Source: an uncultured archaeon (GTDB taxonomy: Archaea; Asgardarchaeota; Lokiarchaeia; Sigyniarchaeales; SOKP01). From it: a stretch of 46,740 nt of DNA. Both the position numbers and the translations under genes were made by a program. The notes beneath the pieces were generated by a model. That model did no database searches and had not been told where the DNA came from. It saw only the letters and a list, made by a program, of their open reading frames with translations. Positions 41,990-46,740 of the stretch are shown in pieces. Location of the stretch: assembly GCA_964486045.1 (NCBI GenBank), contig CAZALK010000013.1, positions 1 to 46,740 of the forward strand, in the 5' to 3' direction. Position 1 is the stretch's first letter. Each line of letters begins with the position of its first letter.

Positions 41990-43492
41990 TCAGATTATCT
42001 TTTTGAATTTTTTCCGTTTTATAACTATTATAGCTATTCCCACAGCTAATGCAGCAGAAAAAATCTCAATCGGATAGCCTGGAATGCTTACTCCTTCCGA
42101 AGGTATTTCGAAATATGCAACAAAAACAGGATCATGAACTAAGTGACCTCCCCCGCTTTCTCCAAATTTTGGATAGCAAGTAATAAAGAAAGCTGCTGTT
42201 TCAGTAGGGTTGAAGGAATCATATGCATCTTCGAAAGGAATTCCGTAAGTAAATTGGTTAGTCTGATTAATTGCGTAACTAATCACTACTTTTGCGAAAT
42301 TTCCCATTAATGGAAGCATTCCCGATACAAATTCTATAAATTCTGAGTTGTCATTGACATCTAGACTTTCATAATAAACTGGATATGTACCCATTGCTGT
42401 TCCATTAATATCTGTAATTTCATATGTTGGTTTTTGACTAAATTTAAAATCAAACGCATGCGTTCCTCCTAAAGTAGTTTGAACTTCAGTTAGTCCTGTT
42501 GTATGTGTGCTTGCGTTGATATCTCCTACTGCCAAATCTGTTAAGGCATAATCTTGCCCAGCCATAATAAAGCTCCACGTTCCAAGAGCGAGAGCCCATT
42601 CATCTGGCATATATCCTTGGTCACCGTCATGGACTTCTACCCAAGGTTCTGTTTGATTTGATCTTATCATTAAAGATCCAAACTTACCAGTTTCATAGTT
42701 TTGGTATAAGGTTGATTCACCTAGTGCAGTATCAATTTCTAAAGAGTAAGTATAGGAAATATACGTTTGGTTTCCAATAGCAGACGATCCGCTGATATAT
42801 GTCCCTGGATCATCATACTGAAAACCCCATTCAAATCCAATTACTGTCCCATTATCAGAGTGGTTCGTTCGGGGAACATAAAAAATTATATCTGTATAAT
42901 TGTAACCCCAAGTATATGTAATAACTGAACCGCTTTCAGAACGCTGTAGGGGGGTTAGCGTGGTTTTCGGAGTAGACTTAATTCCTACCGAATTTTGCAT
43001 TTCAGATGTAGTTGATCCTAAATAGAAGAAAGGATTTATCGATTCCCCATCATCATAGAGATCATTGGAATTATTGTCAGTAAATCCAAACCAAGCACAA
43101 TGCATTGATGCTATTAAAATTTCTGAGCCATTTATATAAAAATGTTGCCACCAAAATTGAGCGGGAGTAGTATAAGTTGAAATTGCTCCATCTTCATAAT
43201 TTGTTTTGTTCATAAATGCTAACATTCCCATCTCAAAATTACCCTCTTTAATCCATTTAATGTTCCAAGTATTATTGATCCAACTAGTCTCATTATTAAC
43301 TTCGGGATGATCCCATCTAGAATTATTGAAAACATTTGTGTCCCAAAAGTTTTCTTCGAAATCATGACCATTAAAAAGTTCATCTTGTGTTGGAATACCA
43401 TCTTGTGCAGTGATATTAAGAGTAAACAACCCTATAACCAATATAGTACAGAAAAATAGGACAAATAATCTGGTTTTTTGATAATATTGCAT
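41990..43492 (-). CDS. secreted surface glycoprotein with a Loki-CTERM-like anchor
   Basis: Signal peptide, many NxS/T sequons, C-terminal SIPGYP + TM + KRKK. Confidence 0.75.
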   Translation of the reverse strand: MQYYQKTRLFVLFFCTILVIGLFTLNITAQDGIPTQDELFNGHDFEENFWDTNVFNNSRWDHPEVNNETSWINNTWNIKWIKEGNFEMGMLAFMNKTNYEDGAISTYTTPAQFWWQHFYINGSEILIASMHCAWFGFTDNNSNDLYDDGESINPFFYLGSTTSEMQNSVGIKSTPKTTLTPLQRSESGSVITYTWGYNYTDIIFYVPRTNHSDNGTVIGFEWGFQYDDPGTYISGSSAIGNQTYISYTYSLEIDTALGESTLYQNYETGKFGSLMIRSNQTEPWVEVHDGDQGYMPDEWALALGTWSFIMAGQDYALTDLAVGDINASTHTTGLTEVQTTLGGTHAFDFKFSQKPTYEITDINGTAMGTYPVYYESLDVNDNSEFIEFVSGMLPLMGNFAKVVISYAINQTNQFTYGIPFEDAYDSFNPTETAAFFITCYPKFGESGGGHLVHDPVFVAYFEIPSEGVSIPGYPIEIFSAALAVGIAIIVIKRKKFKKII

Positions 43493-43848
43493 TTATATCA
43501 TTCTCTAATTTTAGAAGAAATTTTAAATAATCAAAAAAACTTCGCTTATTTAAATCTATTTAAATAAGGTTTTTCAATTTACAAGCTAAAATCATCGACC
43601 GGGTTCCTTATTGTTATTTAATATACCTTTTGGATGTCAATCATCTATAGGATTGAAGTTTAGAAGTTTACATAAAATTTAAAACACGAAAAATGATAAA
43701 ATTTTTATTATTTGTTATCATACATTTCATACAGTGGAAGAGTCACTACCCTATTTTTTAAAATTAGCAGTCTATAATCAGTTTAGAGGATGTTTTCTCC
43801 TATGAGTTCTCGATCTTCCTTAAAAGAAATGTGTAACATTACTAACAT

Positions 43849-43854
43849 GGAGGT
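43849..43854 (+). promoter_or_regulatory. Shine-Dalgarno site of rpoA1
   Basis: GGAGGT 9 nt upstream of ATG 43864. Confidence 0.75.
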
Positions 43855-43863
43855 AAATAGCAT

Positions 43864-46740
43864 ATGAGCTATACTTTTTCAAGAACCAAATTAATAGAAA
43901 AAATCAAATTTGGACTTTTAAGTCCAGATGAGATACGAAAAATGTCTGCCGCTCGTATTATTACAGCAGACACTTATGATGAAGATGGTCTTCCGATACC
44001 AAGTGGTTTAATGGATCAAAGATTGGGTACAATCGAGCCTGGTCAACGATGTCAGACATGTGGAAATCTAGTTAGTAACTGTATGGGACACTTTGGACAT
44101 TGTGAGAAACAATTAGTTTCTTACGTCTAAATAGAGTTAGCCCGTCCAGTTATTCATGTAGGATATGCGAAAAAAGTACTTAAAGTCCTAAGATCTATAT
44201 GTCCTGAATGTTCTAGATTAATGCTCACAGACGAGGAAAAGGAGGAATTTCGTCAAGAACAAATAAAACATAGAAAGATCTTTTTTGAGGGAGATGAAGA
44301 GGCTTCTAAAATAGTATTCAAGCGTGCAAGGAAAACTAAAAATTGTCCGTATTGTGGTGCTAAAAAAAAGAAGATTGTTATTGAAAAACCAACCACTTTT
44401 TATGAAGAGGAAGAAGGAAAGGGATCTCGCAGAATAACTCCTATTGAGATTTTAGACCGATTAAAAAAAATGACTGATATTGATCTTAGAGTCTTAGGTA
44501 TTTCACCCGAAAATGCCCGGCTTGAATGGGTAATTTTTACTGTACTACCTATCCCTCCTGTATGTGCACGCCCTTCAATTACATTGGACAGTGGTATTAG
44601 GTCAGAAGATGATTTAACTCATAAATTAGTAGATGTTATAAGAATTAATCAAAGATTAAGGGAAAATATAGACGCAGGAGCTCCTCATCTAATTGTAGAA
44701 GATCTCTGGGAATTATTACAATATCATATTACCACATATTTTGACAATCAAGTTTCTGGGATACCTCCTGCTAGACATCGCTCAGGGAGAGCACTTAGAA
44801 CGTTGACTCAAAGATTAAAAGGCAAAGAAGGGAGATTTAGAAGTAATTTAAGTGGGAAAAGAGTCGATTTTTCTGCAAGAAGCGTAATTTCACCAAATCC
44901 TTATATAAGCATTAACGATGTGGGTGTACCTATAGAAATTGCGAAAATTTTAACCATACCTACTAATGTTAATGATTGGAATATTGAGGAAATGAAGCAA
45001 ATGGTCTTAAATGGACCTCATCATCACCCTGGGGCCAATTATATTATACGGAATGATCGTAGAAGAATTGACTTACGCTATGTTAAAAATCGCAAGATTA
45101 TCGCTGATATGTTAGCGCCAGGGTTCACTGTTGAACGACATTTGAATGAGGGAGATTTAGTTTTGTTCAATCGTCAACCCTCACTTCATAGGATGTCTAT
45201 AATGGCACATGAGGTAAAAATTATGGATGGAAGGACTTTTAGATTAAATTTAACTGTATGCCCTCCATATAATGCTGATTTTGATGGGGATGAGATGAAT
45301 TTACATGTACCCCAAAGTGAGGAAGCCCGAACAGAAGCAGAATTGCTTCTTAAAGTACAAAACCATATATTATCCCCCCGGTTTGGAGGCCCTATTTTAG
45401 GTGGGATTCAAGATTTTATTTCAAGTGTTTTTCAATTCACAAGTAAGAATTCGTTATATAATAAAAAAGATACATTAAAATTATTGTATAATGGAGATGT
45501 GTTCATTAATAACCCTGATTTTAATCTAGAAGAATTAACTCCTTCAATTACAAATCCAGAACCTTTATATTCTGGTAAAGAAATATTTAGTAGTTTATTT
45601 CCTGATGATTTAAACATAAAAGTTAAGTCAAAATTTTGTAAAAAATGTGATGTGTGTGAAGAAGATAACTGCTCTTATGATGCTTATGTCGTAATTAGAA
45701 ACGGAAAGCTGTTAACTGGAACAATCGATGAAAATTCTTTTGGTGCTATGCAATCTAATAGTATTCTTCAGAGAATTATTAAAGATCATGGAAATGCCCT
45801 TGGAAGGCAATTTTTAGATAGTGCCACTAAAATGCTATTGTATGTAATTAGACAAAATGGAATAACTATGGGATTAGATGAGGTTTATGTCCATGGTCAT
45901 GCTTATGAACATATTCAAAAAATTTTAGAGGATGCTACTGATGAATCTAACAAACTTATTAAAGCATTTTATGAAAATGATACTTCTGTTCTAAAAAGAG
46001 CTCCAGGGAGATCAATGAGAGAAACTTTAGAATTGCGAATTCGTCAAGTATTGGCAGAGGCACGTAAGGAAGCAGAAGAGTCCGCTGCTGACTTCATAGG
46101 GGATGAAGCCCATTCAGTTATCATGACTAAATCAGGTGCAAGGGGAAACATATTAAACTTGGGACAAATGTCTGCTGTAGTAGGTCAACAAGCTATTAGA
46201 GGCGAGAGAATTAACCGAGGTTATGGTAATAGAACTCTACCACATTTTAAAGTTGATGATCTCTCCCCTAAATCCAGAGGTTTTGTTTCATCATCTTATA
46301 GAAATGGATTAAAACCAGCAGAATTCTTTTTTCATGCTATGGGGGGAAGAGAAGGGCTTGTTGATACAGCAGTGAGAACATCTCAGAGTGGTTATATGCA
46401 ACGAAGATTAGTGAATGCATTACAAGATATGGTTGTAGAAAATGACGGAACTGTTAGGAATTCCGATAAAAATATAATCCAATTCCGATTTGGTGATGAT
46501 GGAATTGATGCAATGCATACCGATCATGGAGCAGCAGTAAATCTAGATGTTTTATTGCTAAAAGCTAAAGCATTAGATGTAGAGAAGATTCGTAAAGAGG
46601 TAAAGGAAGCTTCTTCTACTAAAAAGGCTTCTTCTACTAAAAAGGCTTCTTCTACTAAAAAGGCTTCTTCTACTAAAAAGGCTTCTTCTACTAAAAAAGC
46701 TTCTTCTACTAAAAAAGCTTCTTCTACTAAAAAAGCTTCT
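43864..46740 (+). CDS. rpoA1: DNA-directed RNA polymerase subunit A' (Rpo1N); join(43864..44100,44131..>46740), runs off the window
   Basis: Exon 1 ..[13 protein letters not shown]; exon 2 [62 protein letters not shown]; exon 2 is open for 870 codons. Confidence 0.96.
44101..44130 (+). other. putative bulge-helix-bulge (archaeal-type) mRNA intron, 30 nt
   Basis: GGAC/GTCT 4-bp central helix, 3-nt bulges AT^T and AA^A, 9-bp intron stem; excision gives CAT|ATA (GHFGH-IEL) and removes the in-frame TAA. Confidence 0.85.
46609..46740 (+). repeat. 18-bp coding tandem repeat GCTTCTTCTACTAAAAAR (ASSTKK), at least 7.3 copies
   Basis: 4 units ending AAG, 3 ending AAA, and a partial unit at the window edge; in frame with rpoA1. 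Confidence 0.95.

What the first reader, a model, noticed from the sequence alone, without database searches (positions are those of the whole stretch)
44090..44137. Candidate BHB (tRNA-type) intron inside the essential RNA polymerase A' gene
Seen: the conserved zinc-clamp motif CxGHFGH-IELARP is interrupted by TGTGAGAAACAATTAGTTTCTTACGTCTAA (44101-44130), which ends in an in-frame TAA, while the remaining 870 codons are intact. The RNA folds as GGAC(44095-98) paired with GUCU(44125-28), 5' bulge AUU, 9-bp stem GUGAGAAAC/GUUUCUUAC with a 5-nt loop, and 3' bulge AAA. The outer helix is relaxed: ACUUU can pair with AGAGU with one extra unpaired base. Established: archaeal splicing endonuclease (EndA) cuts BHB motifs after the second bulge nucleotide and RtcB ligates; the classic mRNA example is the crenarchaeal cbf5 intron. 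That rule predicts cuts at 44100|44101 and 44130|44131, exactly the insertion boundaries. Inference: this Asgard-like archaeon must splice its RNAP mRNA, which would tie transcription capacity to EndA/RtcB. It also suggests overlooked mRNA micro-introns that annotators call broken genes.
Basis: partly seen in the sequence, partly recalled or inferred. Interest (0 to 1): 0.96.

Follow-up and report, generated by a model that had tools for sequence, protein, structure and literature searches.

The report
tRNA-type intron in RNA polymerase gene
The only gene found for the largest RNA polymerase subunit of this Loki-type Asgard archaeon is broken by a 30-base insert shaped like a tRNA intron, and related genomes preserve its RNA shape so strictly that the mRNA very probably has to be cut and rejoined; the papers I could search report this inside a coding sequence for only one archaeal gene (cbf5).

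Summary
Confirmed. Removing 44101-44130 restores GHFGH|IELARP in the only rpoA1 found in this Lokiarchaeia genome. The insert is identical in four other assemblies. Twelve family genomes in five genera carry an insert at this site. Ten 30-nt copies keep the bulge-helix-bulge (BHB) fold: 93% of cells pair, 10 of 13 pairs show compensatory changes, 0/500 shuffles match. Variants of 31 and 40 nt exclude read-through. The genome encodes a two-subunit EndA with its catalytic residues, and RtcB. Added here: (1) a ~17-bp exon-exon helix (44075-44153) kept by codon choice in 14/14 carriers versus 9/81 non-carriers; (2) no two carriers are sisters on the gene tree, so presence switches often; (3) two more intron sites in the gene, one only 4 nt away, where tandem introns predict ordered splicing; (4) 14 more such inserts in this genome. 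A regulatory role is doubtful. The scan already noted this intron in two other genomes, and the class in 25 or more. Verdict: new variant of the cbf5-type mRNA intron.

The parts
43864..44100 (+). rpoA1 exon 1 (79 codons, ends with the His of CxGHFGH)
   Evidence: TIGR02390 positions 2-74
44101..44130 (+). 30-nt BHB-type intron, phase 0, in-frame TAA at 44128-44130
44131..46740 (+). rpoA1 exon 2 (continues past the window; spliced product 1025 aa in locus L154)
44095..44098 (+). exon half of the 4-bp central helix (GGAC)
   Evidence: 40 of 40 cells paired in 10 genomes; third position of the Gly codon varies with intron position 44126
44099..44101 (+). 5' bulge AUU, predicted cut 44100|44101
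   Evidence: sequence; rule of cutting after the second bulge base (PMC2738675)
44102..44124 (+). intron hairpin: 9-bp stem and 5-nt loop
   Evidence: all 9 pairs show double-sided changes; RNAalifold finds the same fold unaided
44125..44128 (+). intron half of the central helix (GUCU)
44129..44132 (+). 3' bulge AAA plus unpaired U, predicted cut 44130|44131
44075..44094 (+). 5' arm of the long exon-exon helix (about 17 bp with small bulges)
44133..44153 (+). 3' arm of the long exon-exon helix, including the carrier-enriched GCC CGT codons
   Evidence: GCCCG in 13/14 carriers versus 11/81 non-carriers

Best explanation
It is a real archaeal BHB intron in the rpoA1 mRNA. The transcript folds into a long exon-exon stem capped by a 4-bp central helix, two bulges and a 9-bp intron hairpin. 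The two-subunit splicing endonuclease EndA cuts at 44100|44101 and 44130|44131. The exon stem holds the halves together and RtcB joins them, restoring the zinc-clamp motif and a 1025-aa subunit A'. Unspliced mRNA yields only an 88-aa fragment. SHOWN: insert, boundaries, conserved and covarying fold, exon helix, enzymes present, one gene copy found. INFERRED: cleavage, ligation, and that these enzymes do it. The intron is most likely a tolerated passenger that comes and goes, one of some tens in the genome's mRNAs, sitting in the loop of an exon hairpin. It is probably not a conserved regulator. The route of gain and loss is unresolved.
For: Only this excision restores the motif. One rpoA1 found in a 99%-complete genome. 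Identical in four other assemblies. Twelve family genomes have an insert at the same base, each with a 4/4 central helix at the frame-restoring placement. Covariation: 93.1% paired, 10/13 pairs with double changes, 0/500 shuffles; slid controls 31-45%; fold recovered blind. A G.U pair is kept in 9/10, as expected of RNA. Inserts of 31, 40, 35, 50 and 85 nt shift the frame and others carry 2-3 stops. Exon duplex is -12 kcal/mol or stronger in 14/14 carriers versus 9/81 others; 11 independent pairs, none opposite, sign test p about 0.004. EndA alpha keeps residues aligning to A. pernix Y125/H133/K164, R157/W183 and the specificity-loop K44/R46 (PMC3241643). A second EndA subunit and RtcB are present. 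Motif-free census: all 4 well-aligned frame-breaking inserts in 481 orthologues are 30-32-nt BHB-like hairpins; none of 24 harmless in-frame inserts has a stem above 6/9.
Against: The BHB is not the single-sequence MFE and has low ensemble probability in some relatives (0.02 in G075, 0.36 in G064). The covariation shuffle ignores relatedness. The genome is a draft with 7.8% contamination, so a missed second copy is not strictly excluded.
Confidence: 0.92

Rival explanations
1. Translational recoding: the ribosome reads through the stop or hops over the hairpin (T4 gene 60-like bypass), with no RNA splicing.
For: The insert here is a multiple of three, is a stable hairpin, and has a single stop.
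Against: Homologous inserts of 31 and 40 nt shift the frame and some carry three stops. Read-through would put 10 unrelated residues next to a zinc ligand. There is no matching landing codon for CAT at the 3' end. Hopping does not explain the conserved 4-bp exon-intron helix with EndA spacing or the exon-exon stem.
Confidence: 0.03
2. Split gene: an 88-aa N-terminal piece plus a second protein restarting at ATG 44221, as gene callers predict.
For: Archaeal Rpo1 is already split into A' and A''; an in-frame ATG exists at 44221.
Against: Restart at Met110 loses residues 80-109, including IELARP and the CPEC cysteines, in one of the most conserved stretches of the gene (95th percentile). It does not explain the covariation.
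Confidence: 0.01
3. Dead gene or assembly artefact, with a working copy elsewhere.
For: Draft metagenome bin, 7.8% contamination.
Against: Identical in four other assemblies. No second copy found. The rest of the gene is intact and 89-94% identical to relatives. The same site is occupied in 11 other species and 3 metagenome contigs.
Confidence: 0.01
4. The RNA is cut at this structure, but by another nuclease or ligase, or the cut serves decay or regulation more than production of full-length mRNA.
For: Yeast TSEN cleaves mRNAs for decay without ligation (PMC10485636). The motif is relaxed (4-nt 3' bulge).
Against: No other rpoA1 was found, so ligation has to happen. The geometry matches EndA, and EndA has the broad-specificity loop lysine. 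Patchy presence argues against a conserved regulatory role.
Confidence: 0.03

Closest known systems
cbf5 pre-mRNA BHB intron of Desulfurococcales and Sulfolobales (Watanabe 2002; Yoshinari 2006; Yokobori 2009, PMC2738675)
   Same: Short (16-44 nt there, 30 here) ORF-less intron in a coding sequence, at a functionally critical motif, relaxed BHB, cut predicted after the second bulge base, host has a hetero-oligomeric EndA.
   Different: cbf5 is one gene with one ancestral gain and a few losses, confirmed by cDNA. Here the gene is the RNA polymerase subunit A' of an Asgard archaeon, three sites in its first 81 codons are used, carriers are scattered with no two sisters, tandem introns flank a 4-nt exon in two genomes, a long exon-exon helix tracks the intron, and the genome has at least 15 such inserts. 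No cDNA yet.
Haloferax volcanii HVO_1309 5' UTR BHB intron (PMC7714728; PMC10485636)
   Same: mRNA substrate of EndA with a BHB motif.
   Different: Lies in the untranslated leader and does not break a reading frame; homodimeric enzyme.
Non-canonical tRNA introns of Asgard archaea (PMC11291895; bioRxiv 10.64898/2026.10.13.758758) and Thermoproteales
   Same: BHB-bounded, repeatedly gained, arrival route unknown, two-subunit EndA widespread.
   Different: Those studies treat tRNA genes only; the preprint has no occurrence of 'mRNA' or 'cbf5' and its focal families are Freyr-, Jordi- and Atabeyarchaeaceae.
Homing archaeal rRNA introns (BHB introns encoding a homing endonuclease; as summarised in PMC2738675)
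   Same: BHB-spliced, patchy among close relatives, at conserved sites.
   Different: This intron is far too short to encode a nuclease; no trans-acting factor was identified and homing is not shown.

Membership tests
Archaeal BHB (EndA-type) intron | 4-bp central helix between exon 1 and the intron 3' end | tested here: met
   4/4 here; 100% of cells paired in 10 genomes
Archaeal BHB (EndA-type) intron | Two 3-nt bulges on opposite strands, boundaries after the second base of each | tested here: met
   Frame-defined boundaries equal the rule-defined ones in all site-A carriers. The 5' bulge is 3 nt; the 3' bulge has one extra unpaired U (relaxed form, as in many cbf5 introns)
Archaeal BHB (EndA-type) intron | Intron-side helix h' | tested here: met
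   9 bp, 90% paired, 9/9 pairs with compensatory changes
Archaeal BHB (EndA-type) intron | Exon-side helix h | tested here: met
   About 17 bp, -16.9 kcal/mol here; 14/14 carriers versus 9/81 non-carriers at -12 or below
Archaeal BHB (EndA-type) intron | Host encodes EndA able to cut relaxed motifs, and an RtcB ligase | tested here: met
   Two EndA-family genes, catalytic triad and loop Lys aligned to A. pernix; RtcB E 3.6e-167. Enzyme activity not assayed
Archaeal BHB (EndA-type) intron | Precise removal from the RNA in vivo or by EndA in vitro | not testable with these tools
cbf5 mRNA intron family | Lies in cbf5 at the catalytic Asp codon | tested here: not met
   Host gene is rpoA1. It works like the cbf5 intron but is not that intron
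Group I / group II self-splicing intron | Catalytic core of hundreds of bases matching Rfam models | tested here: not met
   30 nt; no Rfam match near any gathering score
Homing (mobile) BHB intron | Encodes its own endonuclease | tested here: not met
   30 nt with a stop
Homing (mobile) BHB intron | Lateral spread with co-conversion of flanks | tested here: inconclusive
   The three closest reciprocal carrier/non-carrier pairs differ 4.6-7 times more in the first 300 nt than later, but some intronless pairs show 2-3 times (p = 0.05), and carriers do not cluster on a local tree

The most novel reading that the evidence does not exclude
Lokiarchaeia run a genome-wide mRNA splicing system on the tRNA enzymes, and its micro-introns are mobile. 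ORF-less introns of about 30 nt invade loops of exon hairpins at conserved motifs of essential genes, move between species by recombination with their flanks, and pile up in tandem so that one intron has to be removed before the next can fold (4-nt micro-exon in G075 and G095). That would be a non-autonomous, structure-targeted intron invasion of protein genes in close prokaryotic relatives of eukaryotes.
Probability: 0.3. Interest if true: 0.92.

Novelty: new variant of a known kind. Interest (0 to 1): 0.77.

Why it matters
A 2023 review counts two archaeal mRNAs spliced by the tRNA endonuclease, only one inside a coding sequence (PMC10485636). If confirmed, an Asgard archaeon cannot build its RNA polymerase without mRNA splicing, and the same holds for histones, GTPases, SelD and metabolic genes of this genome. 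That would make mRNA splicing routine in close prokaryotic relatives of eukaryotes, by a chemistry unrelated to the spliceosome. It offers a tractable case for the open question of how BHB introns are gained: near-identical species pairs with and without the intron, three sites within 120 nt, and intronless alleles that already carry the exon helix. In practice, core Asgard genes are being mis-called as fragments: the 88-aa stub sits in a 106-member database cluster that includes stubs from other such inserts.

Tried and rejected
Tocchini-Valentini 2011 (PMC3064391) is not held, so other predicted archaeal mRNA introns in papers outside the library cannot be excluded. De novo genome-wide BHB scans were noisy: no peak under loose criteria, and 7 hits at 30 nt versus 0-3 in decoys under strict ones. 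I did not use them for counting. Rfam gave no match. No rpoA1 junction pattern was found in viral contigs. The metagenome pattern scan gave three more site-A introns and three contigs intronless at A; these are assembled metagenome contigs of other species, not spliced transcripts. Homing or co-conversion: suggestive at first, weakened by controls. Intronless pairs are also mosaic at the 5' end, the excess is borderline (p = 0.05), and a local tree does not group carriers. Intron identity does not track exon distance significantly (rho -0.27, p 0.12). The introns of different G000 genes share length and shape but, by eye, not sequence. Two reverse-transcriptase domains and one LAGLIDADG domain exist in the genome; no link was shown. 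The tRNA-intron reconstruction was incomplete. The sigma-70 promoter scan was uninformative.

Full report
OBSERVATION. The window ends in rpoA1 (TIGR02390 and PRK08566 match both pieces). The frame from ATG 43864 reads ...[16 protein letters not shown]-stop. Of all 30-nt excisions near the site only 44101-44130 gives GHFGHIELARP, and the frame then stays open to the window end. tblastn finds one rpoA1 locus in the 5.18-Mb, 99%-complete genome. The stretch 43864-44300 is letter-identical in two ENA and two Logan assemblies, where gene callers split it into 88 and 916 aa. The spliced product there is 1025 aa. The host is a Lokiarchaeia (Promethearchaeota) archaeon: Asgard placement on an RpoA1 tree, a Loki-CTERM protein in the window, and cluster mates so named.

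STRUCTURE. The 61-nt region folds with z = -3.94. The BHB form is 2.7 kcal/mol above the MFE but its central pairs have probability 0.64-0.69 in context. The outer helix is longer than described: 44090-94/44133-37, 44083-87/44141-45 and 44075-81/44147-53.

RELATIVES. Among 128 family genomes with a match (about 124 cover the site), 17 have an interrupted 5' rpoA1. Site A, this one, is filled in 12 genomes of 5 genera: ten 30-nt, one 31-nt and one 40-nt insert. Site B, 4 nt downstream after the first base of the Glu81 codon, is filled in 5 (35, 35, 50, 85, 85 nt). Site C, near residue 42, is filled in 3. None of 17 genomes of the order's other families and none of 75 more distant archaea is broken at this site. 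A metagenome scan added three site-A and three site-C inserts. The ten 30-nt copies align without gaps. With the BHB structure, 93.1% of cells pair (shuffled 71.5%), 10 of 13 pairs have double changes, 0/500 shuffles reach this, and slid controls give 31-45%. RNAalifold returns the same structure unaided. The synonymous third base of Gly78 in the exon varies with intron position 26 (A-U, G.U, G-C, U.G). The shuffle ignores relatedness, but carriers are not a clade (below).

EXON HELIX. Carriers choose codons that build a long exon-exon stem. GCCCG follows the junction in 13/14 A or B carriers and 11/81 others. The duplex is -12 kcal/mol or stronger in 14/14 versus 9/81 (median -7.5). Eleven independent pairs on the tree go 9-10 the same way and none the other (p about 0.004). 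Sites A and B lie in the loop of this stem. Inference: the stem holds the exons for ligation, much as the tRNA body does. Whether it precedes the intron or is selected after it is open; nine intronless genomes have it.

TANDEM INTRONS. G075 and G095 carry A and B around a 4-nt exon (ATAG). The exon half of B's central helix reads ATAT only after A is removed (AAAT before). In G095 the probability of that helix rises from 0.06 or less to 0.51-0.96 on removing A; in G075 it stays low (0.04). This predicts ordered splicing and is untested.

ENZYMES. The genome has two EndA-family genes and RtcB. The C7 subunit's best solved match is the A. pernix enzyme; residues align with its Y125, H133, K164, R157, W183 and with K44/R46 of the loop that confers broad specificity (PMC3241643). 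An archease-like ORF lies beside rtcB (recognised by eye). ARAGORN predicts introns in 20 of 31 tRNA calls, with unreliable boundaries; tRNA-Glu on C1 has a clean 38-nt BHB intron.

HOW COMMON IN THIS GENOME. A motif-free comparison with an 800-kb sample of intron-poor G006 covered 481 orthologues (142,000 codons, about a tenth of the coding capacity). It found 4 well-aligned frame-breaking inserts in 3 genes, all 30-32 nt with 3-4/4 central pairs and 7-9/9 stem pairs; none of 24 harmless in-frame inserts had a stem above 6/9, and G006 showed no well-aligned break in the reverse search. That scales to about 40 per genome (Poisson range roughly 10-100; my estimate). Comparison with paralogues gave ten further 27-30-nt inserts: selD2, two histone genes with two each, a Rab-like GTPase, a thiolase-like gene and three others (gene names read from the aligned motifs). 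That makes 15 with rpoA1. Relatives also carry inserts in rpoA2 (at PGTQ|MTL) and in uS12.

EVOLUTION. On trees of exon 2 (56 and 95 genomes) the 11 site-A carriers need 11 changes, no fewer than shuffled labels; starred branches force all 11. Some carriers have intronless sisters at 2-3% distance. So the state has switched many times; an unrooted count cannot tell gain from loss. The first 300 nt are mosaic: G081/G019 differ at 37 of the first 168 nt and 1.9% later; G075/G012 differ 14% versus 2%; and around the site carriers G075 and G095 match each other, as do their intronless sisters G012 and G018. But several intronless pairs are mosaic too, the contrast is borderline (p = 0.05), and a local tree does not group carriers. 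Recombination of short 5' tracts is therefore real; intron homing is not shown. Site A is in the 95th percentile of conservation, as for homing elements, but three sites are too few to test a preference.

MECHANISM AND RIVALS. Best reading (0.92): EndA cuts after the second base of each bulge and RtcB joins the exons. Read-through and hopping fail on frame-shifting and multi-stop homologues. A split protein would lose IELARP and two cysteines. Artefact and pseudogene fail on independent assemblies and on 11 other species.

KNOWN VERSUS NEW. Eight searches of the held papers gave cbf5 as the only coding-sequence case (PMC2738675) and HVO_1309 as a 5' UTR case (PMC7714728, PMC10485636). Asgard intron papers cover tRNA genes (PMC11291895; bioRxiv 10.64898/2026.10.13.758758). 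Subscription papers are mostly not held. The scan itself noted this rpoA1 intron in two other genomes (e1-2661052, e1-5425930) and the class in 45 findings over at least 25 genomes; two of those notes claim RNA evidence in other genes, which I did not check and do not count. It works like the cbf5 intron and meets every sequence-testable BHB feature. It differs in host gene, lineage, number per genome, multiple and tandem sites, and rapid turnover. Verdict: new variant of a known kind, interest 0.77.

Noticed in passing
window 46561-46740; L154 C-terminus: RpoA1 ends in a K/S/T-rich six-residue tandem repeat tail (about 8 units in L154; the genome has an N gap in the repeat just past the window), followed by a short conserved end.
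   Followed up: partly
L042:7957-8002 (-) and L043:11445-11490 (-), plus the next 35 nt: Two BHB introns separated by a 4-nt exon in G095 and G075; the second motif is completed only after the first intron is removed.
   Followed up: partly
L051, L041, L045 (site B): Site-B introns of 50-85 nt carry one to three extra internal hairpins; several share an ATTTC-type pentaloop also seen in the 40-nt site-A intron of G057.
   Followed up: no
L046:8883 (+); L043:6060 (-): 30-nt BHB-like inserts in rpoA2 (PGTQ|MTL, G057) and in uS12 (near PGDG, G075).
   Followed up: partly
G000 C12:112768 and 112898 (+); C6:146615 and 146775 (+): Two histone genes each interrupted by two 30-nt BHB-like inserts; a third paralogue on C1 is intact.
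   Followed up: partly
G000 C1:29542 (+), C17:96924 (-), C1:354340 (+), C1:547454 (-): Several Rab-like GTPase paralogues carry 30-33-nt inserts, two or three of them at about the same place before the P-loop.
   Followed up: partly
G000 genome-wide: Almost all mRNA inserts are 30 nt (1 + 9-bp stem + 5-nt loop + 4 + 2) without evident shared sequence, which hints at a length ruler in their origin or processing.
   Followed up: no
L038:2854-4382: About 1.5 kb in-frame insertion at RpoA1 residue 456 in G063, probably an intein; open frames near 1490 aa in G141 and G145 suggest the same.
   Followed up: no
window 43492-43864: rpoA1 is preceded by a 370-nt spacer and a divergent Loki-CTERM gene, not by rpoH-rpoB.
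   Followed up: no
G000 contigs C40 and C45: 58-59% G+C against about 31% for the rest; likely rRNA or contamination.
   Followed up: no
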